From: Candidatus Omnitrophota bacterium
GTDB taxonomy: Bacteria > Omnitrophota > Gorgyraeia > 2-01-FULL-45-10
Direction: 5' to 3'
DNA length: 64,000 nt
NCBI GenBank assembly: GCA_026387175.1
Contig: JAPLME010000007.1
Span: 64,487 to 128,486 of the forward strand
Of the stretch, positions 911-28,245 are shown in pieces. Every line of letters begins with the position of its first letter. The first letter of the stretch is position 1. The position numbers and the translations under genes are program-made. The notes under the pieces were generated by a model. It saw nothing but the letters and a program-made list of their open reading frames with translations. It was not told the DNA's origin and did no database searches.

Positions 911-1252
911 TCATCTCCCTATCGCTTTTATTATATCCTTCACCGAATGTACTCCCTTATGAAAACATCCGCATACTGAACGAGAAAACGCTTTAGCGTT
1001 CTCCGTATGTCCAGAGTGAATATAAATCCTGGCAAACTCCCACCTGTTTATAAGCGTTGCTATGAGCTCTATTCCGCTTATTTCAGGCAGATATAGATCC
1101 AGGATAATGACATCAGGAACATATCCCGACTTAACCAATCCCAACACCTCGTAGCCTGCAAACGCTGTCTCTACCGTATAACCCGAACTCACAAATTGAC
1201 ATTTCATCATCTTTACAAGGTCATGGTCGTCATCAATGATTAAGAGTTTCAT
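911..1252 (-). CDS. Single-domain response regulator (CheY-like receiver)
   Basis: Translation MKLLIIDDDHDLVKMMK...IILDLYLPEISGIEL is a receiver domain with the acid pocket and phospho-Asp context. The ORF-track start at 1300 is a TTG overlapping the upstream gene, so the in-frame ATG at 1252 is preferred. Confidence 0.7.
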   Translation of the reverse strand: MKLLIIDDDHDLVKMMKCQFVSSGYTVETAFAGYEVLGLVKSGYVPDVIILDLYLPEISGIELIATLINRWEFARIYIHSGHTENAKAFSRSVCGCFHKGVHSVKDIIKAIGR

Positions 1253-1268
1253 TTCCCGCTCTTCTGCG

Positions 1269-1679
1269 CTACTTTTCTTTAGCGCCTTCCGGAACCCCAA
1301 GGCTTACTGTTTTGTTTTTTAAGACGTCTTCGATTTCCCACAGAAGGTCATCCGGGTCAAATGGTTTGCTTATTAAGTATTCTGCTCCACTCGCTATTCC
1401 GTGCCGCTGCACAGATTCTCCGAGCAGTGCCGTTACCATAATAATAGGTATGTCTTTCGTTTTAGCATTTGCTTTGAGCATCTTACTCACTTCAAAGCCG
1501 CTTTGCCCCGACAACAGCACGTCTAGCAGTATGACGTTCGGCTTTTCCTCGACAGCTTTTTCGATACATTCATTCCCGTTAGACGCGGTGATAACCGTAT
1601 ACCCGTTTTTTTCTAAACGAATTCTAAGCATTTTCAGTATATCATGCTCATCATCTACTACCAAAATTTTTGTCCCCAT
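1269..1679 (-). CDS. Single-domain response regulator (CheY-like receiver)
   Basis: Translation KILVVDDEHDILKML...ILLDVLLSGQSGFEV...PIIMVTA shows the canonical receiver fold motifs. There is no output domain. Confidence 0.8.
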   Translation of the reverse strand: MGTKILVVDDEHDILKMLRIRLEKNGYTVITASNGNECIEKAVEEKPNVILLDVLLSGQSGFEVSKMLKANAKTKDIPIIMVTALLGESVQRHGIASGAEYLISKPFDPDDLLWEIEDVLKNKTVSLGVPEGAKEK

Positions 1680-1719
1680 ATTCCGCCTCCTTTGATTTAA
1701 TGTCGCTCGTTTGACCTTT

Positions 1720-2082
1720 TTATCCCAGTATCTTCTTTACTGCGTCTATTAATTCTTTAGGCTCGAATGGCTTGGCAATGCACCCGTTAGCGCCGCATTC
1801 CTTAGCTCTTTGGTCAATAGATGTGACGGTGGCAGAGATCAGGATTATAGGGATATGCTTCATATCCTTATCCCCTCTTAAAATTCCGGCAACAACATCA
1901 CCGTTCATGTCCGGTAGATGGAAATCGAGTATAATAAGGTCAGGGATAATTTGGCGCGCCAGATCCAGCGCCTCCCGGCCGTCTCTGGCGCCTGTCACCT
2001 CATAACCGGTCTTCTTTAATCTTAATAATATGATCTTTAACACATCCGGCTCATCATCGACGACCAGGATCTTCTGTGCCAT
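1720..2082 (-). CDS. Single-domain response regulator (CheY-like receiver)
   Basis: Translation KILVVDDEPDVLKII...LIILDFHLPDMNGDVV...PIILISA is a receiver domain only. Confidence 0.8.
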   Translation of the reverse strand: MAQKILVVDDEPDVLKIILLRLKKTGYEVTGARDGREALDLARQIIPDLIILDFHLPDMNGDVVAGILRGDKDMKHIPIILISATVTSIDQRAKECGANGCIAKPFEPKELIDAVKKILG

Positions 2083-2085
2083 GCT

Positions 2086-4554
2086 TTAGCCTCTACTTTC
2101 TTTTATGGGCAGGGTAAAGTGAAATATCGAACCTTTACCGGGTTGCGACTCCGCCCATATATTCCCGTTATGCGCCTGAATTATCTCTTTAGATATGGCC
2201 AGCCCGAGACCTGTGCCGCCCGTCTTTTTTCCAAGCCCCCCGCCCAATTGCTCGAATGTCTGAAAAAGCTTGGGCATATCTGTGGCCTGGATTCCAAGTC
2301 CGGTATCCTCCACCATCACATGCAGCACACTATCCCCACTCTTAGTAGTAATGGATATACTGCCTTTCTCTGTGAACTTTACGGCGTTACTCAATAAATT
2401 GGTGAGCACCTGAATGATCTTGTCTTTATCAAACTTTGCCCTGGGCAGGCTCTCATCTATGTTCACTATGAAGCTCATGCCCTTCTCCTCCGCCAGAAAA
2501 TTCATCCCCTTACTCGTTGCCAGTACTACCTCATTTATATTATATTCCTTGATATCGAACTCTGTCTTCCCCGCTTCCATCTTCTGAAAATCCAAAACGT
2601 TATTTATCAGGCGGCCCAATCTGTCGATATTGCTCTTTGCGGTATCTAAAATATCCTTCTGCTCAAGCGTTACGTCCCCTGCCAACCCCTCCATAACAAG
2701 ATTGATGCTTTCCTTGATAACTGTCAGCGGGCTTCTGAGTTCGTGAGATACCATAGAAGCAAACTTTGATTTTGCTTCTGCGACTTCTTTAGTGGCTTCT
2801 TCCGCTTTCTTACGCTCGGTGATGTCTTCAATAGCCAGCAGGATGATCCGCTCCTTACCCGTCCCTTGCTCAATTTGCCTGGCATTCAAAAGCATTGTGC
2901 GCATGCCGATGGTAGAAAAATCGTGTTCAACCTCGTAGTTATCAAAGGTTGTCTTTTGGGGAAGTATGGTTTCCAGCAGTTCCCGCAACCTGGGAATGTT
3001 CCACTGCTTATTGCCCAGATCATAGATAAGCTGTCCCACGGTCTCTTTGGTGCTTACCTTAAATACTTCACAGAAGGAGCGGCTGGCGGTGACTACCCTT
3101 AAATCTTGATCTAGAGCGATTAAGGGTTCACGGACGGTGTTGATGATGCTCTCGGCGTATTCGCGGGCCGCATCTTCTGATATTTTAGTTACTTCCAGTT
3201 CTTTGCGGATTTTTTCCAGCCCATTTTCTATCGCCTTACGCTCGGTGATGTCTTCAATAGCCAGCAGGATGATTCGCTCCTTACCCAGCACTCTTTGAAT
3301 CTGCCGTGCATTCAAAAGCATTGTGCGCATGCCGATGGTAGAAAAATCGTGTTCAACCTCGTAGTTATCAAGGGTTGCTTCTTGGGGAAGTATGTTTTCC
3401 AGCAGTTCCCGCAGTTTGGGAATGTTCCACTGCTTATTGCCCAGGTCATAGATAAGCTGTCCCACGGTCTCTTCGGTGTTTACCTTAAAGACTTCATAGA
3501 AGGAGCGGCTGGCGGTGACTACCCTTAAATCTTGATCTAGAACTATTAAGGGTTCACGCACGGTGTTGATGATGATCTCGGCGTATTCGCGGGCCGCATC
3601 TTCGGATATTTTAGTTACTTCCAGTTCTTTGCGGGTCTTTTCCAGGCCAGCTTCTATCTCCTTACGCTCGGTGATATCTTCAATAGCCAGCAGGATGACC
3701 CGCTCCTTACCCATCCCCCGTTCAATTTGCCTGGCATTTAAAAGCATTATACGCCTGCCGATAGCAGCAAAATTGTGTTCAACCTCGTAGTTATCAAAGG
3801 TTGTCTTTTGGGGAAGTATGGTTTCCAGCAGTTCCCGCAGCTTGGGGATATTCCACTGCTTATTGCCCAGGTCATAGATAAGCTGCCCGACGGTCTCTTC
3901 AGGTTTTACCTTAAAAAAGTCATAGAAGGAACGGCTTACCATGACCACCCTGAGATCTTTGTCCAAAGAAATTAATGGTTCACGCACAGTGTTGATAACG
4001 CTCTCAGCGAATTCACTGACTTCATCTGCGGACTTTTTAATAACCGCCAGTTCTTTTCGAGTCTTTTCCAGCCCGGCTTCTATTTCCTTGCGCTCGGTAA
4101 TATCCTCAATGGCCAGGAGGATTAGCTCTTCTTCCTCATCTTCTTCCCCTGCTTCTTCTCTTGTTTTTTCTCTTACCCCTGCCGCTATTATTGCCGCTAT
4201 TTTCTTGGGGATACGCAGCTGAGAGACATTCAGGTTAATACATCGCTGTCCAATTTGCTCGAATTCGTGTTCGATTTCATAGTTTTCTATAACTTTTTTT
4301 TCCGGAAGTATCTCCCTTAAGAGAACAAGCAGTCTTGGAATATCCCATTGCCTATTGCCTAAATCAGTAAGCGGCCGGCCTAATGTATCTTCTTTAGCGA
4401 CCTTAAAGGTATTATAGAAAGATTGGTTGGCGGAAATAACGCGCAAGTTTTTATCGAGCACCAGGAACGGTTCTCTTAGTGTAGCGATAATGCTATTGCC
4501 ATATTCTAAAGCTATCTCAATCTTTGATTTGTCCATTCCCTTTTTATCTTTCAT
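2086..4554 (-). CDS. Sensor histidine kinase with four tandem PAS domains (PAS x4, HisKA, HATPase_c; no transmembrane region or receiver)
   Basis: The C-terminus has an H-box (SHELRSPL) and an ATPase G-box (GTGLGLAISKEIIQAHNG). The N-terminal 570 aa consist of four ~142-aa PAS-like units, each beginning ...LLAIEDITERK.IE.GLEK.RKEL.... Confidence 0.8.
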   Translation of the reverse strand: MKDKKGMDKSKIEIALEYGNSIIATLREPFLVLDKNLRVISANQSFYNTFKVAKEDTLGRPLTDLGNRQWDIPRLLVLLREILPEKKVIENYEIEHEFEQIGQRCINLNVSQLRIPKKIAAIIAAGVREKTREEAGEEDEEEELILLAIEDITERKEIEAGLEKTRKELAVIKKSADEVSEFAESVINTVREPLISLDKDLRVVMVSRSFYDFFKVKPEETVGQLIYDLGNKQWNIPKLRELLETILPQKTTFDNYEVEHNFAAIGRRIMLLNARQIERGMGKERVILLAIEDITERKEIEAGLEKTRKELEVTKISEDAAREYAEIIINTVREPLIVLDQDLRVVTASRSFYEVFKVNTEETVGQLIYDLGNKQWNIPKLRELLENILPQEATLDNYEVEHDFSTIGMRTMLLNARQIQRVLGKERIILLAIEDITERKAIENGLEKIRKELEVTKISEDAAREYAESIINTVREPLIALDQDLRVVTASRSFCEVFKVSTKETVGQLIYDLGNKQWNIPRLRELLETILPQKTTFDNYEVEHDFSTIGMRTMLLNARQIEQGTGKERIILLAIEDITERKKAEEATKEVAEAKSKFASMVSHELRSPLTVIKESINLVMEGLAGDVTLEQKDILDTAKSNIDRLGRLINNVLDFQKMEAGKTEFDIKEYNINEVVLATSKGMNFLAEEKGMSFIVNIDESLPRAKFDKDKIIQVLTNLLSNAVKFTEKGSISITTKSGDSVLHVMVEDTGLGIQATDMPKLFQTFEQLGGGLGKKTGGTGLGLAISKEIIQAHNGNIWAESQPGKGSIFHFTLPIKESRG
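2809..4512 (-). repeat. Intragenic tandem DNA repeat of 4 units with an exact 426-bp period; units 1-3 are near-identical and unit 4 is diverged
   Basis: The anchor cttacgctcggtgat(g/a)tcttcaatagccagcaggatga recurs at 2809, 3235, 3661 and (diverged) 4087. Plus-strand antisense ORFs 2866-3102, 3295-3528 and 3775-3975 have near-identical translations, which reflects the same repeat. Confidence 0.85.
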
Positions 4555-4637: not shown

Positions 4638-7361
4638 TCACTTGAGTTTTATGACCTCTTCCCTTATGCCGAAGGCTATCGCCTCATAATCATCTTTGGC
4701 CCCTAATTTTAGCCCTTCTTTTTTAAGCCCTTCGGAATCAAAAGGCTTTCCAAATGTTATCGTAATCGGATGCGGTCTCGGAAGCCGCTTTGTCCTCGGC
4801 CAGGATTCGTATGAACCGTTTATGCGTACGGGTACCAGCGGGACATTCAGTTCTTTTGCCAATATCCCGACGCCTTTTTTGAATTCCTTAATTTCTCCAT
4901 CTATGGTTCTTTCTCCCTCCGGAAAGATACAGACCATCTTGTTATTCTTAAGGACATAAGAAGATGCCTGCATGGCTTCCACGAAATGTACGCCCGGATC
5001 GATGGGAATGACCTTGATATATTTTATGATATTCCTGATCAGGAAATGGTCGAAGAAGGCCTCAAAGCCTACGAGGTAAAGGTCCTTTCGTAAGCCTCTC
5101 GGCATAGAGGCCGCAACGATGAAACCATCCAGGTAGCTGCCGTGGTTAACGCACAGGATGCACTTTCCCTTTATCGGGATATTTTCTGTTCCAAGTATCC
5201 TGAGCCGCCAGATCGTTCTAAAAACAAGACGTAACGTTCCGGTGAATAGCAGTGTTCCTAAAATTGCCGCAAGGTTGGGCGCTATATACAACTTTTTAAT
5301 GATCTCCTTGACCGGCTCTTTGTTCAGGATCTCACTCCATGAAGTTTGGATCTTGGCCTGCCCGGCGGGCACCTCGCTTCGAGCCTCTGTGCCCGGGGCC
5401 AATTTTTCTATCTCGAGAATAAGTTCTTTAACAGTGGAGGCCTTAGCCAATACCTCCTCAGGGATATGCTTGTTAAACGCCTGTTCTAAGGCCATCGTCA
5501 GTTCCACGCGGCCTAGTGAATCGATGCCGAGATCTAACTCGAGATGGTCGGTCAGGGCGATCTGCCTTCCCAGCTTTGCGTGTTTAGCGAGGGCCTCGAT
5601 TATCTTTCTGCCAACGTCGGAAGAGAGCATCTTAAGGTCCTCATCCGTAGCGGGGGCCCCCTCTCCTTGCTCCGTTTTTGGCTTTATACCCTTAAGTTCA
5701 TCCAGATATTTTTTCTTAACCTCATACCTTATTATCTTGCCCAACCGCGTGCGCGGTATGTTTTCCTTTACAATAATAAAGCCCTTGATGCGTTGGTATG
5801 GAGCAAGGCTGTTAGATAGGTTTTCCAGCTCCCATTTAAGCTTACTATGAATATCTCCCTCCCCGGCCTTGCGGCAATAGTCAGCGTCAGGCACTACCAC
5901 GGCGGACAGGCTCTGGGCGCCCTCTTCGCCTATACCGATAACGCATACCTCTTTGATGTAGGGGCTCTTGGCATAGTGGGATTCGATCTCTTCGGGAAAG
6001 ATCTTTTTGCCGGAACTTAAAACGATCATCTCTTTTATCCTTCCGGTAATATAAAGATACCCGTCCCTATCTATATGGCCCAGGTCGCCGGAGTAAAACC
6101 AGCCGTCTTTTAAGACGCTCGCGGTATCGTCCGGCCGTTTATAGTAGCCTTTCATGACGTTTGGGCCCTTGATCATCACTTCGCCCATACCCGCTTGATC
6201 GGGATTGACAATTTTCACTTCTACATCCGGGATCACCTTGCCGACAGAACCGATCTTCTGCCTTCTCAATGGATTAAAGGCTACGCCCGGCGATGTTTCG
6301 GTAAGTCCGTATCCTTCAAGTATCGTGAAACCGATCTTCATGAGAAATCTCGCCGCTTCTTCATTTAACTTGGCTCCGCCGGAGATAAAAAATCTTAAAG
6401 TTTTGCCAAATGGCCGGTGTATCTTCGACAGGACCTGCTTGTTTAAATTTATTCCGCTAAGCCTTCTTATCTGCCACAATAGCCCTATCAGGCCTGAAAG
6501 AGGGACCTTGAACAAAAACGGCATCTTCTTCATCTTGGCCGTAGCTTGCGTATAAAACATATAAAAAAGTTGTGGCACTCCCGCCAGTACCGTTACCCCT
6601 GCCTCCTTCATCGATGCCAGTAATTCATCGGTTTTAAGGCTTGAAGCATACGTGACCCGTGCCCGGCAAAAAAGAGGCAGGATCAGCGTAACTATGAAAG
6701 GGAAACAATGGTGCAGTGGCAATATCGATATGAAGTTATCCTTATCCGAGAAGAGTTTCAGCTTGTAGATACTTTGAAAATTAGAGCAGAAATTTTTATG
6801 CGTGAGCATTACCCCTTTTGGCTCGCCGGTGGTGCCTGATGTATAGATAAGCGAAGCGATATCTTCGGGAAGGACCTCGGGCCACGCGACGCCTTCGCGC
6901 AAAGTAGACTTGACCTGCGCCAGGCCTATGAGGTTCTCTTTCTCGATATCCAGGTCCAGTATAACGATCTTGTTCAGTCCGGTTTTTATCTTATCGATTT
7001 TTTTTGCCTGAAAAACAGCATTGGAGACGAATATGACCTTTGCGGCGCAGTCATTGATGAGGTTTTCTATTTCCTGTCCGGTCAACTGCGTATCAAAAGG
7101 AACGCAAGTTAGGCCCGCGGCCATTATGCCTAAATAGATTATTCCCCACTCCGGCCTATTCTCCAGGCATATAGCCGCAAAGTCACCTTTTTTAAAGCCT
7201 GCCTTAATGAGAAATGCTCCTATTTTTAGAGAAAGATCTTCCATTTGCCCGTATGTCCATCTATCCCAGTCGGGGCCTTTCTTGATTTGAAGGCATACCC
7301 TGTCTGAATACTGAGAAGAGACTTGAGCAAACATCTTATGTATAACCAATTCTTCTTTCAT
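4638..7361 (-). CDS. Tri-domain fusion: fatty-acid AMP-ligase (acyl-CoA/acyl-ACP synthetase), acyl-carrier-protein domain, and 1-acyl-glycerol-3-phosphate-type (PlsC/LPLAT) acyltransferase
   Basis: AMP-binding P-loop YTSGTTGEPKGV. Phosphopantetheine attachment site LGIDSLGRVELTMAL. A hydrophobic segment, then the PlsC HxxxxD motif (NHGSYLDG) and FPEGERT. The preferred start is M11 (ATG 7359-7361), which forms an ATGA overlap with the upstream gene's stop. Confidence 0.8.
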   Translation of the reverse strand: MKEELVIHKMFAQVSSQYSDRVCLQIKKGPDWDRWTYGQMEDLSLKIGAFLIKAGFKKGDFAAICLENRPEWGIIYLGIMAAGLTCVPFDTQLTGQEIENLINDCAAKVIFVSNAVFQAKKIDKIKTGLNKIVILDLDIEKENLIGLAQVKSTLREGVAWPEVLPEDIASLIYTSGTTGEPKGVMLTHKNFCSNFQSIYKLKLFSDKDNFISILPLHHCFPFIVTLILPLFCRARVTYASSLKTDELLASMKEAGVTVLAGVPQLFYMFYTQATAKMKKMPFLFKVPLSGLIGLLWQIRRLSGINLNKQVLSKIHRPFGKTLRFFISGGAKLNEEAARFLMKIGFTILEGYGLTETSPGVAFNPLRRQKIGSVGKVIPDVEVKIVNPDQAGMGEVMIKGPNVMKGYYKRPDDTASVLKDGWFYSGDLGHIDRDGYLYITGRIKEMIVLSSGKKIFPEEIESHYAKSPYIKEVCVIGIGEEGAQSLSAVVVPDADYCRKAGEGDIHSKLKWELENLSNSLAPYQRIKGFIIVKENIPRTRLGKIIRYEVKKKYLDELKGIKPKTEQGEGAPATDEDLKMLSSDVGRKIIEALAKHAKLGRQIALTDHLELDLGIDSLGRVELTMALEQAFNKHIPEEVLAKASTVKELILEIEKLAPGTEARSEVPAGQAKIQTSWSEILNKEPVKEIIKKLYIAPNLAAILGTLLFTGTLRLVFRTIWRLRILGTENIPIKGKCILCVNHGSYLDGFIVAASMPRGLRKDLYLVGFEAFFDHFLIRNIIKYIKVIPIDPGVHFVEAMQASSYVLKNNKMVCIFPEGERTIDGEIKEFKKGVGILAKELNVPLVPVRINGSYESWPRTKRLPRPHPITITFGKPFDSEGLKKEGLKLGAKDDYEAIAFGIREEVIKLK

Positions 7362-9442
7362 TTTAGCGTCTCCTTGAATCTGTCCAAACATATCTTCATA
7401 AATTGATCCGGGAAGACGTCAAATATCCTTTCCGCATGTCCGCCGCCTTTAATGATTGTCAGGGACTTGGGATTCTTCGCCTTGTCGAATAATAGCTGGC
7501 TATTGCTCATCTTCACCAGCCAGTCTTTTTCACCATGGATGAAAAGGACCGACGTGGGCGATATCTTATTAACGATATCGCGGGGCCGGGTCTTTGTTAA
7601 AGACGGGCTTCCCATTCTAACGCCCTTCCCGCGTCCCTTGATTCCGAAATTGAGCTTCAGGTCTTCCCACATATCTTTTTCCCAAAAATGGTAATTGATG
7701 CTTCCTAGGCCTGACGGGGTGCTGACAGCTATAACGCTATCGATACTTTGATTACAGCTCGCTTCTATAAGCGCGATCGCGGCGCCCAGTGAAAAACCGA
7801 CTACGCCGATCTTCTCATAGTGAGCGCTTTTCGCGTATGCGATGACCGCGCGCAAGTCTTTCTGCTCATGTGCAGTCCATGTAAATACGTCGCTCGACTT
7901 GCCATGTCCCCTAAAATCGAATACGATGACATCGTATTCTTTACTGAATGCTTCGGCCATTTTTTTAAATAAATATGTATCCTTATTATTGTAAAAGCCT
8001 GGTGCCAGTATAACTACTTTGGAAAATCCTCCCCTGATATGATTAAAGGCAATGCGCTTACCATCTTCTGTCATCACATAACGGTCAGGCTCGCTCTCTC
8101 CCGCAGGAGAAGGTGTCGCGCCCTTAGGGAGATCGCCGTTTGTGTCAACGATCTGCCTGGGTTCTGTCTTATTAAAATCTCCTTCGAATACGGATGTGGC
8201 AATGGAACCAAAATAATTCCTGAAAATATCCCACTCGGATTTAGCGCGCCATAGGAGCATAAACTGTGAGCTATTCTTCTTGCCTACTGAAATAGACTTT
8301 CTCGATCTTGCGTCTTCATAGATCTCTAGCATGCGTGTAGCGGAAGCATTGATCGTGAATTTCTGCGCCGTAGTCCTTGCGGCCTGTTTCATGGTTTTTG
8401 ATTCTTCCGGAGAGCTGCTTAAAACCGAAAGCAGTGCATCGGTATAAGTCTGCTGATCCATCTCATTGAGTAGTCTCCCGTTCTTACGGTCCTCTACAAC
8501 GTCTCGCGCTCCAGGCGCATCCAACGCTACCACGGGAGCACCTGCTGCCATGGCTTCAATGAGGACAATGCCTTGAGTTTCGCTTAATGAGGCGAACGCG
8601 AAGAGATCCATGGCAAAATACGCGTCTACCAGCTCCTGATAATGCAGGACCCCGGCTAAGTGCAATCTATCTTCAAGGCCGGCCTCTTTAAATGTATCCT
8701 GGATCATCTTTTCGGCAGGGCCCTTGCCGACGATAAGGGCATGGGCCTTCGGATCCTTCTTTAATGCTTCAACCATACAATTTATCAGGAAGTCCAGGTT
8801 CTTCTCCGGAGCCAGCCGCCCCGCGTGGCCGATCACTTTAGCCTCAAGAGGAATATGGTTCTGCTGGCGAAAAGCATTTCCATTGCCCTTTGAAAAACGT
8901 TCTACGTCTACCCCCGTCGGAACGACCGCCATGGGAGTCTTGACGCCTCTTTTGAACAGGATCTCCTGCACGCTTTCAGTGGGAACGATCACCCGATCGA
9001 CCATATTGGCATATCCGGCAGCAAGCTTTACAATGAATCGTTTTACTCCCTCATTCTGAACAGGCCAATCATGCACATATTGTTCAAACATACAGTGATA
9101 AGTAAATATAAGCGGTATCGCGTGCTGTCGGCTAAGGCGTAACGCAAAATCTCCCATGAAGAACGGGCAATGGCTGTGCGCGATATCCGGCGAGAATTCT
9201 TTCATTAATTTCGTTAAGAGCCGTGAGGCCGGGAAGTTAACGGAGAAGATGGTTCCGCTGAATTTTTGGAAGGCAGGAATACGGATAACGCCCGGCTCCT
9301 CTGTCGGCATACCCTGAAAGGTCGGAGTAACGATTAAAACCTCGTGCCCCAGTCTTCTGAATTCTTCGCTGAAAGAATAGACCGATTGTTCCAGCCCCCC
9401 GACAATCGGAAAATATGTATTCGTCATCATCAGAATTCTCAT
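7358..9442 (-). CDS. Fusion of a GT4-family glycosyltransferase (N-terminal) and an alpha/beta-hydrolase (esterase/lipase-like, C-terminal)
   Basis: The N-terminal ~400 aa have a GT-B/GT4 layout (MRILMMTNTYFPIVGGLEQ..., GRLAPEKNLDFL). The C-terminal ~280 aa carry the nucleophile elbow GFSLGA, plus IHGEKDWLV and a GGGHAE His region. A TAATG overlap with the upstream gene indicates translational coupling. Confidence 0.7.
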   Translation of the reverse strand: MRILMMTNTYFPIVGGLEQSVYSFSEEFRRLGHEVLIVTPTFQGMPTEEPGVIRIPAFQKFSGTIFSVNFPASRLLTKLMKEFSPDIAHSHCPFFMGDFALRLSRQHAIPLIFTYHCMFEQYVHDWPVQNEGVKRFIVKLAAGYANMVDRVIVPTESVQEILFKRGVKTPMAVVPTGVDVERFSKGNGNAFRQQNHIPLEAKVIGHAGRLAPEKNLDFLINCMVEALKKDPKAHALIVGKGPAEKMIQDTFKEAGLEDRLHLAGVLHYQELVDAYFAMDLFAFASLSETQGIVLIEAMAAGAPVVALDAPGARDVVEDRKNGRLLNEMDQQTYTDALLSVLSSSPEESKTMKQAARTTAQKFTINASATRMLEIYEDARSRKSISVGKKNSSQFMLLWRAKSEWDIFRNYFGSIATSVFEGDFNKTEPRQIVDTNGDLPKGATPSPAGESEPDRYVMTEDGKRIAFNHIRGGFSKVVILAPGFYNNKDTYLFKKMAEAFSKEYDVIVFDFRGHGKSSDVFTWTAHEQKDLRAVIAYAKSAHYEKIGVVGFSLGAAIALIEASCNQSIDSVIAVSTPSGLGSINYHFWEKDMWEDLKLNFGIKGRGKGVRMGSPSLTKTRPRDIVNKISPTSVLFIHGEKDWLVKMSNSQLLFDKAKNPKSLTIIKGGGHAERIFDVFPDQFMKICLDRFKETLK

Positions 9443-10917
9443 TATTTATCCTTGTCTGCCGGTGGGCAGGTTTTTAGTTCCACGAGCGCTTTTCTGGCTG
9501 CCACACATATTGCGTCGTAACTATTTTTTGCGCCCATGATCATCCCTTCCTTTTCCATGTCTTCGGGAAGAAGCGGCTTTCCGAACCTTACTTTGATCAG
9601 ATGACGCTTAGGATATTTTGCGGTACTGGCCCAAGCCTCGTGAGCTCCATCTATGGCCACAGGAACAAGCCTTGCCCCCGTCTCTTTAGCCAGGACGCCA
9701 AACCCTTTCTTAAATTTTCCTATAACACCGTCGCTCGAGCGCAACCCTTCAGGGAAATAACACAAGCCCTTGCCGTGGTGTAGTACGAAATAACAGCTGC
9801 GCAGAGCCTCTAAAAAATGCGTGGAGAAATCAAAGGGGATTATCCTTCCCATCTTTATCATATTCCTTAGCACACGGTTCTTTAGAAACGGCCTGAAATA
9901 GTACGGACCGAATACGAAATAAAATAGCTGAAAGCCCGGCCTGCGCGGCAGAGAAGCGATAATGGCAGCCCCATCAAGAAAACTCGTGTGGTTGGGATAT
10001 ATAATATAAGCCCCTTCTTCTGGCACGTTTTCCGCTCCTTCCACCTTAATACCGAAGAATAATTTTATATACGTACAGATTATGGCCGTGCAGATAAACC
10101 TGAACAGCCATGCGAAGAAACCGGTGGTTAATTCGAGAACTTCCAGATTTTCTTTTTTTGGCAGCACATGTAAAGTCTCTTTCCAGAAGCCCGGCCCCAG
10201 AGATATCCCTAGATCCTCACGGGGGATATCTTTAGCTCCCCTCAATGCATCCGTTATCCTCAGAATAAGGCCCTTTACGCTAAATGCTCTCGAGATCGCC
10301 TGGTCCTTTATTTCAGCGTTAAAAGCCAACTCAAGCCGCGAAGCAAGCTCTATCCTGCCTAATGAATCTATGCCCAGGTCCAACTCTAAAGAGTCCTCGA
10401 GTATTATCGGCCTTCCAATACCGCTTTGCTCCTTTAAACAGTCCAGGATTTTTTTGCCGGTCGGGGACTCTGTCAACAGAAGGTCCTCTTCCGAAAGTTC
10501 TCCTGATACCGGAAGGGCGCCTTCTATTCCCGCGATCACTCTGGGTTCATATAACTCCTTAACCGCATACCTGACCACTTTACCGAACAGATTATGCGGC
10601 AGATCCTCCAACGTGATGGTAAAGCCTTTTATCCTTTTATAGGACGGTAGCAACTGCGAGGCATTATCGAATCTCTCCTCGATAACGGAGCGCAGATTAA
10701 CCTCCGAAAATTCCCTGAATTTATCAAGATCCGGCTGAATGACGGCCCAGAGAACCTTCGATCTCTTTTCGCCTTTCATCCCGGAGACCGTAAAGATGCA
10801 CATCTCTTTTATGGGAGCAACCTTTGTATAAGCCTCCTCGATCTCTTCCGGATAAATTATATTTCCAGAATTCATCATAATGAACTCCCTGAATTTATCC
10901 GCGAAAGTCTCCGTCAT
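9442..10917 (-). CDS. Paralogue of the 4638-7361 fusion lacking the adenylation core: AMP-binding C-terminal subdomain, ACP domain, PlsC/LPLAT acyltransferase
   Basis: The N-terminal ~120 aa (NIIYPEEIEEAYTKVAPIKEMCIF...YKRIKGFTI...GKVVRYAVKELYE) align to the C-terminal subdomain of the adenylation domain in the 4638-7361 protein. They are followed by the ACP site LGIDSLGRIELASRL, then HxxxxD (PNHTSFLDG) and FPEGLRS. There is an ATGA overlap with the upstream gene. Confidence 0.7.
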   Translation of the reverse strand: MTETFADKFREFIMMNSGNIIYPEEIEEAYTKVAPIKEMCIFTVSGMKGEKRSKVLWAVIQPDLDKFREFSEVNLRSVIEERFDNASQLLPSYKRIKGFTITLEDLPHNLFGKVVRYAVKELYEPRVIAGIEGALPVSGELSEEDLLLTESPTGKKILDCLKEQSGIGRPIILEDSLELDLGIDSLGRIELASRLELAFNAEIKDQAISRAFSVKGLILRITDALRGAKDIPREDLGISLGPGFWKETLHVLPKKENLEVLELTTGFFAWLFRFICTAIICTYIKLFFGIKVEGAENVPEEGAYIIYPNHTSFLDGAAIIASLPRRPGFQLFYFVFGPYYFRPFLKNRVLRNMIKMGRIIPFDFSTHFLEALRSCYFVLHHGKGLCYFPEGLRSSDGVIGKFKKGFGVLAKETGARLVPVAIDGAHEAWASTAKYPKRHLIKVRFGKPLLPEDMEKEGMIMGAKNSYDAICVAARKALVELKTCPPADKDK

Positions 10918-13589
10918 TTATCCGTCCCATATTTTAATTCGATAGAATTCGTGCCGGGCGAAATTCTCACGTTGGCAATACCTGGTAATCGAATATCGAT
11001 CGGCGGCTCTTTTGCGCGCCATTGCCCCTGCCATTCGATAAGGATATTTTGCCCTTGGGGTTTTATGTAAATTTGAATATCCCCGAAACTTGTCGGAGCG
11101 GGCCCAAACGCGAGCGGCTGGTCTTTCTCCAGCCAGATCCGCGGTATGCCGGAACATAATATTAATCTATCGTTTTCTTCGCGCACAAAACAATTTCTTA
11201 TCATCAAGACCCATTCCGCTGCGGCCCATACGTGCTGCCCATCTCCCATACATCCGCCGCCTGTGCGAGGATGTACCGACTCGGGCCATTGACCCGTAGG
11301 TGAAGCCAGGTTAGCCACCGCGGTCATTAGACCGAAATATCTGGGGTCCCCCGCGCGCAAAAGCGCTTGAGCTAAATGCAGCGTAAGATAAGGGTTGATC
11401 CCTGAATGGGTCATGTCATGAAAAAATCCGCCATGGACCAAACAATTTTTCATCAAATATTCGGCAGTGTCTAAGATCTTCGGATCGTTCTGTTCAAAAA
11501 TACGAAGCGGATAGCTGGCAGCCAAAGAACCGATCGCTCCCGCGTCCAGGCGGCGATAGGGAGAGGCCGGTATCGCGGGTCTTTTTAGACGTTCACACGC
11601 TTTCTTTAAACTTTGATTGATGCTCTTCAGAAATGCGTGCGATTCTTTTTCAAAGTAGCCGGCCTCGGCTTTATCCTTGTAAGCAGCACATAAAAAGGCC
11701 GCTGCTTTTAATCCGGCAACACCCCAAAAGTCATCCCAATAATAAAAATCATTCGGCCCCAAATGCTCTGCGCTAAATCCTGATGGTAATAGACCTGCGT
11801 GAGGAGACTGCGCATCATCAGACAAACGTTTCTTATAAATCCACTTACCCGCTTTATCGATCGAGTCTTTCCATTCTTTCGGCGGCACGTTTCCCGTCAT
11901 CTCGCAATATTGACGCATGATCCACAGGGCCTCACCGTTAGAATCCCATTCCCCTTCCTGGGAGAGGAAATAACCCTCGGCTGTCTGACGGGAGCGGAAA
12001 CAATCCAGCGCCCGGCGGACGCGTTCCTTTAACCCGACACTTAATAAACCGTATAAAATAAAAGCGGCGTCGCGAAACCAAAACCGCCGGTAAATATAAG
12101 GCCCGGGATAAACTTCCTTGGGAGAGTGTAGAATCATGGTATGGACAGCGGCATCGTAAAGGAACTGGAAATGTTCATCGGGAATTTGCATTGAACACGC
12201 GCCGTGAAGGCTCTTCTTCCACGCCAGCTTGGCATTTTCCTGATAGTCCCAATGGGACTCTTTTTCAATTTTATTTTTCGTTAAAGGCACCGAAACGGTA
12301 ATTTCCCGCGGTTGCCCCTCTTCTATTATATATAACGCCGCGGAGCTGGCCATGCCGACTTTACATGTAACTTCTTTTTCATCTTCTTTTGATGACAAGC
12401 GGCCATAAACATCGCCTCGATGATAATCCGAAAATACGCATTGGTCCGGAGGTTTATCAAAATAGACAAAATTTTCCCGATTCACCTGCCAACCCGACGA
12501 ATCTTCAAGGAGAGCGATACTATTTATTAAGCTTACGCCTTCGGGGTTATATGGCCTGAGAGAAACGACTAAGTGCGCCTTTACGGAAGCGGATCCTGTG
12601 ATCTTGACCTGGCAAATAGGCGCTTCGGCTGAACCGATAACCTGCGCTTTCAATCGAAGCTTTAATTGACCAAGGTTTGATTCTGTGATCACACAAAGAT
12701 TATCATCCATAACCATCTTTTGGGATATGCTTGGGATACGCGATGGGACCAGTGGCTCTCCCTCTTCTGGAATGATCCAGACATCAATAGACCAGCTATC
12801 GTAAAATGGAGTAAAAAGACCGCGAGGATCCACCAGAGGAAACTCGGTGCTGTCCGGAACGCCCAGAGCTGTCCAATTTCTATGTGTAAGATTAATCTGG
12901 GTTAACGAAAAAGACCGCGGAATAAACGCCTCGTTCTCGGGATCATATTGACATTCCACCCAATAAGGCCAGACCCAATCGAGGTTATGCTGAATAGCTA
13001 AACTATTTATCAGGCCGCGAGCGTGTAAGACAGCGCCTGAGCGCAACAGTTCCAATGGAGCTGCCACCTCTGAGGGTTGCGCAAATTTCTCTAATTGAGA
13101 AAGGACTTTGATGGGGTCTAAAAATCCCTGCCTTCGCGCGGCATCTGTCACTAAAAATTTCCATGGGAGCCACTTCCACCACATGAAATATACCTTTTCC
13201 TTCAAAATGATCCTGAAGACCCACCATTTAAAGCAGATAAAGGCAAATAGGCTCGTGAATATAGTGGCAATGATCAGTGCCGGATAAATGGCGCCGTGCC
13301 ACATATTAAGAATACTTTGATTTATTATCACATTGATCCCTAGTGCTAAGAAATTGATCAGCGCATACCGGCCAAATTCTAAATATGAAGGCTGGCTGTG
13401 TTTAAATGTCCAATACTTGTAAAGCAGGTATCCGAGGCTGCCGGCGCATGTAAAAGATATCGCCTTGGCTAGGCTGAAAGGCAGAAAATGGAACAGGATA
13501 TAATAAACACTGAAGTCTGTAGCATTGACTATAGTCCCTGCAATAAATGCCTTGATGACCTCTTTTCTGGAATCATTATCGATCTTCAA
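10914..13589 (-). CDS. Fusion of a GtrA-like 4-TM domain (N-terminal) and a large (alpha/alpha)6-barrel glycoside hydrolase-like domain (GH15/GH63/GDE-like)
   Basis: The N-terminal 120 aa match the GtrA family pattern (IAGTIVNATDFSVYYILF...YKYWTFK). The remainder carries FWFRDAAF, WDDFWG, QWPE and GDGQHVW, which resemble the glucoamylase/debranching-type six-hairpin hydrolase family. The start appears to be TTG. Confidence 0.55.
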   Translation of the reverse strand: MKIDNDSRKEVIKAFIAGTIVNATDFSVYYILFHFLPFSLAKAISFTCAGSLGYLLYKYWTFKHSQPSYLEFGRYALINFLALGINVIINQSILNMWHGAIYPALIIATIFTSLFAFICFKWWVFRIILKEKVYFMWWKWLPWKFLVTDAARRQGFLDPIKVLSQLEKFAQPSEVAAPLELLRSGAVLHARGLINSLAIQHNLDWVWPYWVECQYDPENEAFIPRSFSLTQINLTHRNWTALGVPDSTEFPLVDPRGLFTPFYDSWSIDVWIIPEEGEPLVPSRIPSISQKMVMDDNLCVITESNLGQLKLRLKAQVIGSAEAPICQVKITGSASVKAHLVVSLRPYNPEGVSLINSIALLEDSSGWQVNRENFVYFDKPPDQCVFSDYHRGDVYGRLSSKEDEKEVTCKVGMASSAALYIIEEGQPREITVSVPLTKNKIEKESHWDYQENAKLAWKKSLHGACSMQIPDEHFQFLYDAAVHTMILHSPKEVYPGPYIYRRFWFRDAAFILYGLLSVGLKERVRRALDCFRSRQTAEGYFLSQEGEWDSNGEALWIMRQYCEMTGNVPPKEWKDSIDKAGKWIYKKRLSDDAQSPHAGLLPSGFSAEHLGPNDFYYWDDFWGVAGLKAAAFLCAAYKDKAEAGYFEKESHAFLKSINQSLKKACERLKRPAIPASPYRRLDAGAIGSLAASYPLRIFEQNDPKILDTAEYLMKNCLVHGGFFHDMTHSGINPYLTLHLAQALLRAGDPRYFGLMTAVANLASPTGQWPESVHPRTGGGCMGDGQHVWAAAEWVLMIRNCFVREENDRLILCSGIPRIWLEKDQPLAFGPAPTSFGDIQIYIKPQGQNILIEWQGQWRAKEPPIDIRLPGIANVRISPGTNSIELKYGTDK

Positions 13590-13606: not shown

Positions 13607-14908
13607 CTAAATACGCAGCTTACCCGACCTGATGATCTCCTCGAATCTTCTTGCCGATTCCCGGATCTTTCTGCTTTGCGTCATATAGTCCACTTCTATT
13701 AACCCGAACCGCGGAGCAAAACCATCCGCCCACTCATAATTATCCAGGAGCGACCAATAGAGATAGCCGATCACGGGGGCCCCTTCCTTAATCGCCATAG
13801 CCGTGGCTTTAAGATGCTCTACGATGAACTCCGAACGCTCGGCATCATCATTTGTGCAAATACCGTTTTCTGAAATTAGAATAGGTAGTTTGTACTTTGA
13901 AAATATTTTTATGAGCATATGCAACCCTTTCGGATAAATTTCCCAACCGAGAAAATTTTTCCTATTGCCGGGGCTATCTAAAACACGCTCATCACCTGAG
14001 ATAGCAGATGATAGAAACCCGCGATTGCGTACATGTTCCCGCATGTAGTAATTTAAACCGATAAAATCCAGGGTTCTCGCCGTGGAGAGCCGTATACTGA
14101 GTATCCCGGAGACCTTTGCTTTTCCAAGGATTAAGGCCTTAATAAATAGATGATTAACCACGCGATTTCTCAAGCCGGCTGAAAGCCGATCCCACAAAGA
14201 ACGATCCGAGGAAGGCGCGAATATGAGCACTTGCTGAGCTATTCCGATCATAGGCCTCTTCCAACCTTTTTGAGCGTAAACTTCTTTGATCTTTCCATGA
14301 GCCAGGACATGGGCTTTGGCTAAATTTTGTACAACTTTAAATGCTTTTTTTATTGATTTCTCTCCCGGCGGCCACTGCCCGGTAACATAGCTCTTATACG
14401 CGTAAACCGTCGGTTCATTTAACGTAATCCAATACTGAACATCATTTCCCAGGTATTCCGTCGCTTTCTGGACATATTTGGCAAAAAGTTCCGGGCTTTT
14501 ATCCGAAAGCCATCCCTCCCGGCTCGCCATCCATAAAGGGATAGTAAAATGATTCAATGTTACAATGGGCTCTATTCCCTTGGATTTCAGCGAAAGGATC
14601 ATCTTGCGATAATGATCAAGGGCTGAGTTGTCAAATTGGCCGGGCGAAGGTTCGATACGGCTCCATTCAAGGGAAAAACGATAGGCCGTAAGCCCTAAAG
14701 TCTGAGCGAGCTTAAAATCCTCTTCAAAACGATTCCAGTGATCACAAGCCTGGCCGGAACGCATTTCCGGGGGGATATGTTGCTCCCACTGCCACCAATC
14801 GTTATTGGTATTGTTGCCTTCGACCTGATGAGAAGATGTGCCTGCTCCCCACAAAAAATATTTGGGAAATACAAATTCCTGCGGAGTTGTTTCCATATTT
14901 AAGCCCAT
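13607..14908 (-). CDS. Glycoside hydrolase family 1 beta-glucosidase/beta-galactosidase
   Basis: GH1 catalytic acid/base motif WITLNEP and nucleophile motif ISENG. The N-terminus F.WGAGTSSHQVEG is GH1-like. Confidence 0.85.
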   Translation of the reverse strand: MGLNMETTPQEFVFPKYFLWGAGTSSHQVEGNNTNNDWWQWEQHIPPEMRSGQACDHWNRFEEDFKLAQTLGLTAYRFSLEWSRIEPSPGQFDNSALDHYRKMILSLKSKGIEPIVTLNHFTIPLWMASREGWLSDKSPELFAKYVQKATEYLGNDVQYWITLNEPTVYAYKSYVTGQWPPGEKSIKKAFKVVQNLAKAHVLAHGKIKEVYAQKGWKRPMIGIAQQVLIFAPSSDRSLWDRLSAGLRNRVVNHLFIKALILGKAKVSGILSIRLSTARTLDFIGLNYYMREHVRNRGFLSSAISGDERVLDSPGNRKNFLGWEIYPKGLHMLIKIFSKYKLPILISENGICTNDDAERSEFIVEHLKATAMAIKEGAPVIGYLYWSLLDNYEWADGFAPRFGLIEVDYMTQSRKIRESARRFEEIIRSGKLRI

Positions 14909-28244: not shown

Positions 28245-28245
28245 A

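What the first reader, a model, noticed from the sequence alone, without database searches (positions are those of the whole stretch)
4638..13589. Four-gene overlapping operon composed entirely of unusual fusion proteins predicted to build or remodel an acylated (glyco)lipid
The four genes run from 13589 to 4638 with ATGA/TAATG overlaps at every junction, indicating translational coupling:
- a GtrA (4-TM, lipid-linked-sugar handling) domain fused to a GH15/GDE-like glycoside hydrolase;
- an adenylation-C-subdomain + ACP + PlsC acyltransferase protein;
- a GT4 glycosyltransferase fused to an alpha/beta-hydrolase (lipase/esterase elbow GFSLGA);
- a fatty-acid AMP-ligase + ACP + PlsC acyltransferase protein. 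This is an Aas-like activity, but with the domain order reversed relative to E. coli Aas and with its own built-in carrier protein.

Together these encode everything needed to activate a free fatty acid, carry it, acylate a lyso-lipid acceptor, glycosylate it, and hydrolyse ester or glycosidic bonds. In effect it is a self-contained Lands-cycle-like glycolipid remodelling system.

A lipoprotein patatin phospholipase A (1-906) and a GH1 glycosidase (13607-14908) flank it on the same strand. Two-component regulators bracket the region. I am not aware of this set of fusions being a described pathway.
Basis: partly seen in the sequence, partly recalled or inferred. Interest (0 to 1): 0.75.

Follow-up and report, generated by a model that had tools for sequence, protein, structure and literature searches.

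The report
Omnitrophota membrane glycolipid acyl-remodelling gene block
A conserved set of overlapping genes in an uncultured Omnitrophota bacterium encodes fused enzymes that together look able to activate free fatty acids on built-in carrier domains, attach them to membrane lipids, and add or remove sugars. The parts are known, but I found no description of this combination, and its product is unknown.

Summary
Four minus-strand genes (10914-13589, 9442-10917, 7358-9442, 4638-7361) overlap by ATGA/TAATG.

- g2: a paralogue of the C-terminal half of g4 (adenylation C-subdomain, ACP, PlsC).
- g3: a GT4 glycosyltransferase fused to a Ser-Asp-His alpha/beta-hydrolase.
- g4: an adenylating domain, ACP and an Aas-type acyltransferase.

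The fusions are not assembly artefacts. The same genes recur in dozens of independent Omnitrophota assemblies.

The block has two modules. GtrA::GH15-like, ACP-PlsC and GT4 are adjacent in 9 of 9 loci. The second module is the hydrolase plus adenylase-ACP-PlsC. The hydrolase domain is fused to the GT4, fused to the adenylase, or free.

GH1, a PAS kinase, three receivers and a lipoprotein patatin are syntenic neighbours.

The best reading is ATP-driven, Aas-like (re)acylation coupled to glycosylation and deglycosylation of a membrane glycolipid. This is inferred, not shown. The adenylase-ACP-acyltransferase architecture is already known as "ElbD-like without reductase". I rate it a new variant of a known kind, interest about 0.55.

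The parts
13607..14908 (-). GH1 beta-glycosidase. It has no signal peptide or TM segment, and the catalytic TLNEP and ISENG motifs are present. Its stop lies 17 nt upstream of the g1 start, so it is probably the first gene of the transcription unit.
   Evidence: Pfam PF00232 289.7 bits. TIGR03356 312 bits, below the 478.5 equivalog cut-off. Motifs read. Directly upstream of g1 in L092, L093, L095 and L096 as well. Fused to a PlsC domain in L004.
10914..13589 (-). g1: a fusion of a GtrA-like 4-TM domain and a GH15/GDE-fold domain (891 aa, TTG start).
   Evidence: It is 70-82% identical in more than 100 Omnitrophota protein clusters, all with the same fusion.
13215..13544 (-). GtrA/DPMS-type transmembrane domain of g1 (aa 16-125). 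The positive-inside rule puts both ends in the cytoplasm.
   Evidence: PF04138 48.4 bits against a cut-off of 26.1. Charge distribution of the loops.
10914..13187 (-). Soluble domain of g1 (aa 135-891): beta-sandwich, (alpha/alpha)6 barrel and a C-terminal beta domain. It has the GH15/GDE fold, belongs to an uncharacterised family with no Pfam model, and is predicted to be cytoplasmic.
9442..10917 (-). g2: adenylation C-terminal subdomain (aa 6-124; nt 10546-10902), ACP (aa 156-208; nt 10294-10452) and an Aas-type PlsC acyltransferase (aa 290-422; nt 9652-10050). It is a paralogue of g4 residues 451-917 and begins at the hinge of the adenylation domain.
   Evidence: The DSL serine, A10 lysine (GK), HX4D and FPEG are conserved in six orthologues. 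The AT domain scores 82.7 bits to NF006386 against 48 to TIGR00530. It lies between g1 and the GT4 in 9 of 9 loci.
7358..9442 (-). g3: a GT4 glycosyltransferase (aa 1-381; nt 8300-9442) fused to an alpha/beta-hydrolase (aa 475-690; nt 7373-8020) with GFSLGA Ser, Asp and His.
   Evidence: The best NCBIfam match is alpha-monoglucosyl-DAG synthase, 139.6 bits against a cut-off of 400. About 60 fused clusters and many GT4-only clusters of about 440 aa. The triad is conserved in fused and free forms.
4638..7361 (-). g4 (907 aa from ATG 7361). In order: a long-chain fatty-acid adenylating (ANL) domain (nt 6141-7325), its C-subdomain (5691-6032), ACP (5418-5606) and an Aas-type PlsC acyltransferase (4821-5204).
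   Evidence: The AT domain scores 110.3 bits to NF006386 against 64 to TIGR00530. The identical protein P0001 is annotated in a Candidatus Omnitrophica MAG.
2086..4554 (-). PAS-domain histidine kinase downstream of g4. It is syntenic in L093 and L096.
911..2082 (-). Three single-domain CheY-type response regulators (1720-2082, 1269-1679, 911-1300). They are syntenic in L093.
1..906 (-). Patatin-like phospholipase with a lipoprotein signal peptide. Its C-terminus runs off the window. It recurs as a neighbour of the block.
   Evidence: PF01734 76.8 bits. Lipobox LSIQGC. Patatin lies near the block in L001, L004, L088, L093 and L096.

Best explanation
This is a chromosomal, phylum-conserved Omnitrophota gene block for making and re-acylating a membrane glycolipid at the cytoplasmic face of the inner membrane, using free fatty acids rather than the FAS-derived acyl-ACP pool.

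Proposed steps. All are inferred from domain content and from analogy to E. coli Aas, Myxococcus ElbD and Mgs-type GT4 enzymes. Only the sequence features are shown.
1. A serine alpha/beta-hydrolase, fused here to the GT4, and the exported lipoprotein patatin release fatty acids and lyso-lipids.
2. The ANL domain of g4 adenylates the fatty acid and thioesterifies it onto its own phosphopantetheinylated ACP.
3. The Aas-type PlsC domain of g4 transfers the acyl group to a lyso-lipid acceptor.
4. g2 starts at the adenylation-domain hinge. It keeps the A10 lysine, the ACP serine and the acyltransferase motifs. It would be loaded in trans by the g4 adenylation core and acylate a second position: the other glycerol hydroxyl or a sugar hydroxyl.
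5. The GT4 adds an alpha-hexose, probably glucose, to diacylglycerol or a related lipid.
6. The GH15-fold domain of g1 is held at the membrane by the GtrA-like helices, which in DPMS-type enzymes bind the lipid substrate. It and the GH1 enzyme trim, remove or transfer head-group sugars.
7. The adjacent PAS kinase and receivers regulate the block.
For: Domains and motifs are intact.
- HX4D and FPEG are present in both PlsC domains, and the DSL serine in both ACPs. The A10 lysine is present in g4 and in all six g2 orthologues.
- The Ser-Asp-His triad is conserved in all hydrolase forms.
- GH1 has both catalytic glutamate motifs.

Both acyltransferase domains match the acyltransferase segment of Aas-type acyl-[ACP]-phospholipid O-acyltransferase models better than LPAAT (110.3 against 64 bits; 82.7 against 48 bits).

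Gene fusions tie the parts together.
- The hydrolase is fused to the GT4 (window, L004, L089, L092-L096), fused to the adenylase N-terminus (P0045, P0064, P0068, P0072; L001), or free and overlapping the adenylase (L005).
- PlsC is fused to GH1 in L004.

Synteny.
- g1-g2-GT4 is found in 9 of 9 loci.
- g4 directly follows g3 in 4 loci.
- GH1 lies directly upstream of g1 in 5 loci.
- Kinase, receivers and patatin are conserved downstream in L093 and L096.
- At least 21 contig-length matches between the g4 and g1 hit lists, and at least 30 between g1 and g3.

Other points.
- The GT4's best family match is alpha-monoglucosyl-DAG synthase, and JGI names several homologues 1,2-diacylglycerol 3-alpha-glucosyltransferase.
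- g1 has the GH15/GDE fold and a predicted cytoplasmic orientation.
- ACS and ACP activities were shown in vitro for the homologous architecture in ElbD, according to PMC9131029.
Against: No lipid, substrate or activity is known for any Omnitrophota.
- The GT4 is far below the Mgs equivalog cut-off (139.6 against 400 bits).
- Free-standing relatives of the g1 soluble domain pair with orthologous GT4 genes, or with a GH57 branching enzyme, in genomes without the acyl genes. The GH15-like/GT4 pair may therefore act on a soluble alpha-glucoside or glucan.
- The two modules are unlinked in several genomes.
- Trans-loading of g2 is speculative.
- A phosphopantetheinyl transferase and a PA phosphatase were not looked for beyond this window.
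- Catalytic residues of the GH15-like domain were not mapped.
- The MFS transporter next to the adenylase in L006/L007 is not recognisably LplT.
Confidence: 0.5

Rival explanations
1. Two independent systems that merely sit side by side. The first is a GH15-like plus GT4 pair that makes and degrades a soluble alpha-glucoside or alpha-glucan, here membrane-tethered. The second is an Aas-like lysophospholipid repair unit (hydrolase plus adenylase-ACP-acyltransferase) acting on ordinary phospholipids. There would be no common glycolipid product.
For: - The modules are separate in L001/L088 (same genome), L089, L005 and L003.
- Free-standing GH15-like/GT4 pairs occur without acyl genes (L091; GT4 41% and GH15-like 44% identical).
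- A GH15-like gene lies next to a GH57 branching enzyme in L090.
- The adenylase-ACP-acyltransferase occurs alone in Planctomycetales, Dadabacteria, Spirochaetota and Fusobacterium.
Against: - The ACP-PlsC paralogue g2 is always wedged between g1 and the GT4, with overlapping stop and start codons (9 of 9 loci).
- The hydrolase domain is fused alternately to the GT4 and to the adenylase.
- PlsC is fused to GH1 in L004.
- g1 carries a lipid-handling GtrA domain.
Confidence: 0.2
2. Sugar acylation rather than glycerol re-acylation. One or both PlsC domains would acylate a hydroxyl of the sugar head group, as PatA does on phosphatidylinositol mannosides, or of an oligoglucan, as in mycobacterial MGLP. 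The product would be an acyl-glycosyl lipid or an acylated oligosaccharide. The GH15-like enzyme would set glycan length.
For: - GT4 and PlsC-family genes are in one overlapping unit, as in the pimA-patA arrangement (established knowledge).
- PimA and MshA are the closest solved GT4 relatives (E 8e-16 and 2.8e-24).
- The presence of two acyltransferases suggests two different acceptor positions.
Against: - Both AT domains score best against Aas-type lysophospholipid acyltransferase models.
- No methyltransferases or inositol-lipid genes are nearby.
- PatA uses acyl-CoA, not a fused ACP.
Confidence: 0.15
3. ElbD-type ether-lipid biosynthesis. On this reading g4 is the Omnitrophota ElbD and the block makes alkyl-glycerol (glyco)lipids.
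For: - The ACS-ACP-AGPAT order is the same as in the C-terminal three domains of ElbD.
- BLAST screens have already counted 'ElbD homologues' in 93 of 267 Omnitrophota MAGs (PMC11868695).
Against: - No reductase (FAR/NAD_binding_4) domain is present in g4, g2 or any neighbour.
- There are no AGPS or elbB/C/E-like genes in the block.
- The literature itself notes that reductase-less homologues are of unknown function, and that Pontiella has such a homologue but no ether lipids.
Confidence: 0.05

Closest known systems
E. coli Aas (2-acylglycerophosphoethanolamine acyltransferase / acyl-ACP synthetase), with LplT
   Same: It combines an ANL fatty-acid adenylating domain and a PlsC-type acyltransferase in one membrane-associated protein. 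The acyltransferase domains of g4 and g2 score best against Aas-type models. The likely logic is the same: ATP-dependent re-acylation of lyso-lipids from free fatty acid.
   Different: The domain order is reversed. An ACP domain is built in, whereas Aas uses free AcpP. Scores are far below the equivalog cut-offs (176 against 886 bits). No recognisable LplT partner was found. There is a second, adenylase-less ACP-acyltransferase paralogue. The genes are embedded with glycosyltransferase and glycosidase genes.
Myxococcus xanthus ElbD and the 'ElbD-like proteins lacking the FAR domain'
   Same: The order is identical: acyl-CoA-synthetase-like domain, ACP, AGPAT-like acyltransferase. Reductase-less versions in other phyla are mentioned in PMC9131029. 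Omnitrophota hits are reported in PMC11868695.
   Different: There is no reductase domain and no elb neighbours. The function of the reductase-less form has never been determined. The genetic context here is glycolipid-type, not ether-lipid-type.
GH15 glucoamylase / glucodextranase / dextran dextrinase, and archaeal-type glycogen debranching enzyme
   Different: Identity is only 11-17%. There is no Pfam or CAZy-type sequence membership. The domain is fused to a GtrA membrane domain, is predicted to be cytoplasmic, and is paired with a GT4.
GtrA flippase-like proteins and the GtrA-type TM domain of archaeal dolichol-phosphate mannose synthase
   Same: The Pfam PF04138 match is above the cut-off. 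There are four helices. As in DPMS, the TM domain is fused to a catalytic carbohydrate-active domain.
   Different: The fused partner is a glycoside-hydrolase fold rather than a GT2. No polyprenyl-phosphate glycosyltransferase is nearby.
Alpha-monoglucosyldiacylglycerol synthase (Mgs), and PimA with PatA of mycobacteria
   Same: All are GT4 retaining glycosyltransferases acting on membrane lipids. In mycobacteria the GT4 is adjacent to a PlsC-family acyltransferase.
   Different: The score is below the Mgs family cut-off (139.6 against 400 bits). A C-terminal serine hydrolase fusion is present. The acyl donor is presumably a fused ACP rather than acyl-CoA.

Membership tests
Aas (bifunctional acyl-ACP synthetase / 2-acyl-GPE acyltransferase) | A PlsC-type acyltransferase domain with HX4D, plus an ANL adenylating domain, in one polypeptide. 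| tested here: met
   PF01553 75.5 bits and PF00501 290 bits in g4. NHGSYLD and FPEG were read.
Aas (bifunctional acyl-ACP synthetase / 2-acyl-GPE acyltransferase) | Acyltransferase at the N-terminus and synthetase at the C-terminus, with no carrier domain (free AcpP is used). | tested here: not met
   The order here is adenylase, ACP, acyltransferase, with PP-binding at 39.1 bits between them.
Aas (bifunctional acyl-ACP synthetase / 2-acyl-GPE acyltransferase) | Score above the NCBIfam equivalog cut-off (NF005959, 886 bits). | tested here: not met
   176.3 bits.
Aas (bifunctional acyl-ACP synthetase / 2-acyl-GPE acyltransferase) | Genetic partnership with the lysophospholipid flippase LplT. 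| tested here: inconclusive
   There is no MFS gene in the window block. In L006/L007 an MFS gene overlaps the adenylase gene but matches only generic MFS models.
ElbD (ether lipid biosynthesis multidomain enzyme) | ACS, ACP and AGPAT domains in this order. | tested here: met
   architecture as described in PMC9131029.
ElbD (ether lipid biosynthesis multidomain enzyme) | A fatty acyl reductase (FAR1-like) domain. | tested here: not met
   No reductase or NAD-binding family matched in g4, g2 or the neighbours.
ElbD (ether lipid biosynthesis multidomain enzyme) | elbB/C/E-type neighbours and production of alkyl ether lipids. | not testable with these tools
   Neighbours here are GT4, GH15-like, GH1 and two-component genes. 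No lipid data exist for the organism.
Glycoside hydrolase family 15 | A beta-sandwich plus (alpha/alpha)6 catalytic fold. | tested here: met
Glycoside hydrolase family 15 | Sequence membership (Pfam PF00723 or TIGR01577 above the cut-off). | tested here: not met
   No Pfam hit. TIGR01577 scored 17.3 bits against 820.7. Three of 32 family members hit PF00723, and only at E about 0.0025.
Glycoside hydrolase family 15 | The general-acid and general-base glutamate pair at the GH15 positions. | not tested
   No residue-level superposition was available. The family has invariant or near-invariant E413, D415, E474, D480, D485, E636 and D649 in domain numbering.
GtrA family | PF04138 above the gathering score, with four TM helices. 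| tested here: met
   48.4 bits against 26.1. The AF2 model shows helices 5-32, 38-61, 69-96 and 101-124.
GtrA family | A small free-standing protein of about 120 aa, partnered with GtrB/GtrV-type enzymes. | tested here: not met
   It is fused to a 757-aa domain, and no GT2 (GtrB) gene is nearby.
Alpha-monoglucosyldiacylglycerol synthase (Mgs, GT4) | A GT4 two-domain fold. | tested here: met
   PF13439 119.4 bits and PF00534 117.9 bits.
Alpha-monoglucosyldiacylglycerol synthase (Mgs, GT4) | Score above the NF049988 equivalog cut-off, and diacylglycerol as acceptor. | tested here: not met
   139.6 bits against 400. The acceptor cannot be tested here.
Alpha/beta-hydrolase serine esterases | G-x-S-x-G nucleophile elbow with conserved Asp and His. 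| tested here: met
   GFSLGA, the D of GEKDW and the H of GGGHAE are conserved in seven fused and free homologues.

The most novel reading that the evidence does not exclude
The block could be a self-contained, ATP-driven assembly and remodelling line that builds the cell's main membrane glycolipid from scavenged fatty acids. It would use a split adenylation enzyme: the catalytic core in g4 would service its own C-subdomain-ACP and, in trans, the core-less C-subdomain-ACP-acyltransferase g2. A membrane-tethered cytoplasmic GH15-fold enzyme would edit lipid-linked sugars. This would be a lipid pathway specific to ultra-small, possibly host-dependent Omnitrophota, and it would explain how they use prey or host lipids.
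Probability: 0.2. Interest if true: 0.8.

Novelty: new variant of a known kind. Interest (0 to 1): 0.55.

Why it matters
Omnitrophota are a widespread, uncultured phylum of mostly ultra-small cells, and nothing is known of their membrane lipids. This block is among their most conserved accessory-looking loci: g1 is 70-82% identical across more than 100 protein clusters.

- **Function for an orphan architecture.** It offers a concrete, testable function for the reductase-less 'ElbD-like' proteins. Environmental surveys currently score these as ether-lipid markers, and if they are Aas-like re-acylases those inferences need revising.
- **An uncharacterised enzyme family.** It defines a large family (about 2400 representatives) with the GH15 fold that pairs with a GT4.
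- **A split adenylation enzyme.** g2 is a natural example of an adenylation enzyme split at its hinge.

Tried and rejected
- **First AF2 run on full-length g1.** It used 32 close homologues and gave pLDDT 54.8, so I discarded it. It was replaced by a 110-sequence alignment of the soluble domain.
- **afdb50 fold library.** Not available.
- **Sequence search of g1 against PDB.** It found nothing. The profile search gave only weak six-hairpin hits.
- **Promoter and terminator scan.** Promoter-like sites were at the chance level and no convincing internal terminator was found. It gives no information on transcription units.
- **LplT hypothesis for the MFS gene next to the adenylase in L006/L007.** Only generic MFS matches.
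- **Genome-contig scan with g4.** It returned mostly adenylation-domain-only relatives. Only L008-L015 were full length.
- **Metagenome scan with g2.** It gave only three loci.
- **Literature searches for Omnitrophota lipids.** Nothing on fatty-acid or lipid metabolism in PMC10066038 or the 2026 complete-genome preprint.
- **Literature searches for the fusion sets.** Nothing found.
- **Mobile or defence island reading.** Rejected. GC content is even. The neighbours are housekeeping genes: ATP synthase, Mrp/complex-I-like, GOGAT, GSIII and NadE. The patatin match to the CBASS lipase model is far below its cut-off (35 against 200 bits).
- **Pseudogene or truncation reading of g2.** Rejected. It starts exactly at the domain hinge, is 69-88% conserved in eight other loci, and has all motifs intact.


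Full report
**1. Observation**

The window carries four consecutive minus-strand ORFs: 10914-13589 (g1, 891 aa), 9442-10917 (g2, 491 aa), 7358-9442 (g3, 694 aa) and 4638-7391 (g4). The junction sequences are ATGA (g1/g2), TAATG (g2/g3) and ATGA (g3/g4). The last holds if g4 starts at ATG 7361, which is the start of the 100% identical 907-aa NCBI protein P0001 from a Candidatus Omnitrophica MAG. GC content is even across the region. The rest of the window encodes housekeeping functions: F-type ATP synthase, Mrp/complex-I-like subunits, GOGAT, GS type III, NAD synthase and PFK. This is ordinary chromosome, not an island.

**2. Domains**

- g1 has a GtrA/DPMS_TM domain (48.4 bits against a cut-off of 26.1) and then about 760 residues with no family.
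- g2 has PP-binding and PlsC-type Acyltransferase domains. BLASTP shows g2 is a paralogue of g4 residues 451-917 (38% identity, E 5e-103). It therefore carries the C-terminal subdomain of an adenylation enzyme, an ACP and an acyltransferase, but no adenylation core.
- g3 is a GT4 glycosyltransferase fused to an alpha/beta-hydrolase.
- g4 is AMP-binding, AMP-binding_C, PP-binding and Acyltransferase.
- The adenylating domain resembles long-chain acyl-CoA/acyl-ACP synthetases, and carboxylic acid reductases through the carrier domain. I therefore call it a fatty-acid adenylating (ANL) domain rather than specifically a FAAL.
- Scanned alone, both acyltransferase domains match the acyltransferase segment of Aas-type 'acyl-[ACP]-phospholipid O-acyltransferase' models better than the LPAAT model: 110.3 against 64 bits for g4, and 82.7 against 48 bits for g2.

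**3. The unassigned part of g1**

A sequence search against PDB found nothing. A whole-library HMMER search found 2432 relatives, mostly free-standing proteins of about 770 aa. A profile built from them gave only weak hits to GDE, GH15 and GH78. A first AF2 model from close homologues was poor (pLDDT 54.8).

A second model, from a 110-sequence alignment, was excellent (pLDDT 95.6, pTM 0.95).
- Foldseek placed it with GH15 glucodextranase, bacterial glucoamylase and dextran dextrinase, followed by GH94 and GH65 phosphorylases.

Identity is only 11-17% and there is no sequence-family membership. The positive-inside rule puts both ends of the GtrA domain, and hence the GH15-like domain, in the cytoplasm. 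GH1 also lacks any signal peptide or TM segment.

**4. Are the fusions real, and do the genes co-occur?**

Yes to both.
- g4-type proteins occur in more than 100 listed clusters at 50-88% identity, nearly all Omnitrophota or PVC.
- The GtrA::GH15-like fusion occurs in more than 100 clusters at 70-82% identity.
- The GT4::hydrolase fusion occurs in about 60 clusters. GT4-only forms of about 440 aa make up most of the other listed clusters.
- Exact contig-length matches link the g4 and g1 lists at least 21 times, and the g1 and g3 lists at least 30 times.

Fetched loci show the following.
- g1, g2 and the GT4 are adjacent, with overlapping genes, in all nine loci that contain a g2 orthologue.
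- g4 follows g3 directly in the window, L092, L093 and L096. It lies five genes further on in L004 and elsewhere in L088, L089 and L094.
- GH1 lies directly upstream of g1 in the window, L092, L093, L095 and L096.
- L093 and L096 also keep the downstream PAS kinase, the receivers and the patatin.

**5. Rosetta-stone links**

The hydrolase domain (Ser-Asp-His triad conserved) takes three forms. It is fused to the C-terminus of the GT4 (window and others). It is fused to the N-terminus of the adenylase (P0045, P0064, P0068 and P0072, about 1160 aa; L001). Or it is a separate gene overlapping the adenylase gene (L005).

In the genome where the hydrolase is on the adenylase (P0068), the GT4 next to g1-g2 lacks it (L088; P0187, P0499 and P0068 all have a longest contig of exactly 179,177 bp, taken to be the same contig). 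In L004, GH1 is fused to a further PlsC domain.

These alternative fusions argue that hydrolase, adenylase, GT4, acyltransferases and GH1 work on related substrates.

**6. g2 is not a remnant**

Six orthologues start at the hinge between the adenylation core and the C-subdomain. They keep the A10 lysine (GK), the ACP DSL serine, HX4D and FPEG. The simplest reading is that g2's carrier domain is loaded by the adenylation core of g4. This is inference.

**7. Mechanism proposed**

- Free fatty acids are released by the serine hydrolase and perhaps by the exported lipoprotein patatin.
- They are adenylated by g4, held on built-in ACPs, and transferred by Aas-type acyltransferase domains to lyso-lipid acceptors.
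- The GT4 glycosylates a diacylglycerol-type lipid. Its best family match is alpha-monoglucosyl-DAG synthase (139.6 bits, below the cut-off of 400), and JGI annotation names homologues 1,2-diacylglycerol 3-alpha-glucosyltransferase.
- The membrane-tethered GH15-fold domain and GH1 (NEP and ENG motifs present) remove or rearrange head-group sugars.
- The kinase and receivers presumably regulate the block.

Only the sequence features and the synteny are shown. All chemistry is inferred.

**8. Rivals**

(a) *Two independent modules that happen to be neighbours.* This is supported by their separation in several genomes. It is also supported by free-standing GH15-like/GT4 pairs (L091: 44% and 41% identity) and by a GH15-like gene next to a GH57 branching enzyme (L090). 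The invariant position of g2 and the alternating fusions argue against it.

(b) *Sugar acylation, PatA- or MGLP-like.* This is compatible with two acyltransferases and with GT4 relatives such as PimA. The Aas-type affinity of the acyltransferase domains makes it less likely.

(c) *ElbD-type ether-lipid synthesis.* The architecture matches ElbD minus its reductase (PMC9131029). Omnitrophota 'ElbD homologues' have been counted by BLAST (PMC11868695). However, no reductase or AGPS is present.

**9. Comparison and novelty**

Each part belongs to a known kind: ANL adenylase, ACP, PlsC/LPLAT, GT4, alpha/beta-hydrolase, GH1, the GH15 fold and GtrA. The adenylase-ACP-acyltransferase architecture has been noted before as a reductase-less ElbD homologue of unknown function.

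I found no description of the following:
- the GtrA::GH15-fold fusion;
- the hinge-split ACP-acyltransferase paralogue;
- the GT4::hydrolase fusion;
- their conserved assembly with GH1, patatin and two-component genes.

I rate it a new variant of a known kind.

**10. Limits**

- No lipid data exist for Omnitrophota.
- Catalytic residues of the GH15-like domain were not mapped.
- I could not examine the rest of the genome for FASII, PlsX/Y, PPTase or PA phosphatase.
- Co-transcription is inferred only from overlaps and short gaps. The promoter and terminator scan was uninformative.

Noticed in passing
L004:12748-14670 (JGI 3300027819, Ga0209514_10000025): In a relative whose g4 is 87% identical, the GH1 beta-glycosidase is fused to an N-terminal PlsC acyltransferase domain (640 aa; PlsC at residues 5-177, GH1 at 217-624). 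It lies directly downstream of the adenylase-ACP-PlsC gene. Five two-component genes, including a receiver-GGDEF, are inserted between g3 and g4.
   Followed up: partly
L091:1050-4591; the no-DNA locus of P0332 (GCA_041443045.1); L090:6001-8340: Free-standing homologues of the g1 soluble domain, without GtrA, lie next to an orthologous GT4 in L091 (overlapping genes; 44% and 41% identity). In the P0332 locus the homologue lies next to a GT4, with OlsB-like (Acetyltransf_5) and PlsC genes beyond it. In L090 it lies next to a GH57 branching enzyme and DUF4912. The GH15-like/GT4 pair is therefore an older, wider module of unknown function.
   Followed up: partly
P0466 (NCBI Omnitrophota MAG, contig of 40151 bp): A variant of the GT4 (574 aa, 73% identical) carries a PilZ domain in place of the hydrolase. 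This suggests c-di-GMP control of the glycosyltransferase in some lineages. The window itself has a receiver-EAL gene at 21974-23092.
   Followed up: no
L006:7974-12745 and L007:7866-12637: In more distant relatives (g4 56% identical) the order is alpha/beta-hydrolase, MFS transporter (overlapping the next gene), then adenylase-ACP-PlsC. This recalls the lplT-aas arrangement. The MFS matches only generic transporter models, not LplT.
   Followed up: partly
window 14912-15184 (-); also L001:21171-21434, and PLDc_N mini-ORFs in L001, L004 and L093: Small membrane proteins recur around the block in several genomes: Transgly_assoc/GlsB-like (90 aa) and PLDc_N (about 55-93 aa). MlaEFD-type lipid transport genes also recur in L001 and L088.
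   Followed up: no
window 911-4554 (-): A PAS histidine kinase followed by three consecutive single-domain CheY-type receivers with no output domain. The arrangement is conserved in L093. It is an unusual regulatory layout (a phosphate sink or relay?) directly downstream of g4.
   Followed up: no
window 27003-30018 (-): Two adjacent radical-SAM genes: a 413-aa one, and a 590-aa one of the YgiQ type with Radical_SAM_N and DUF3362. A HAD hydrolase gene follows them downstream at 30011-30661. Their function was not examined.
   Followed up: no
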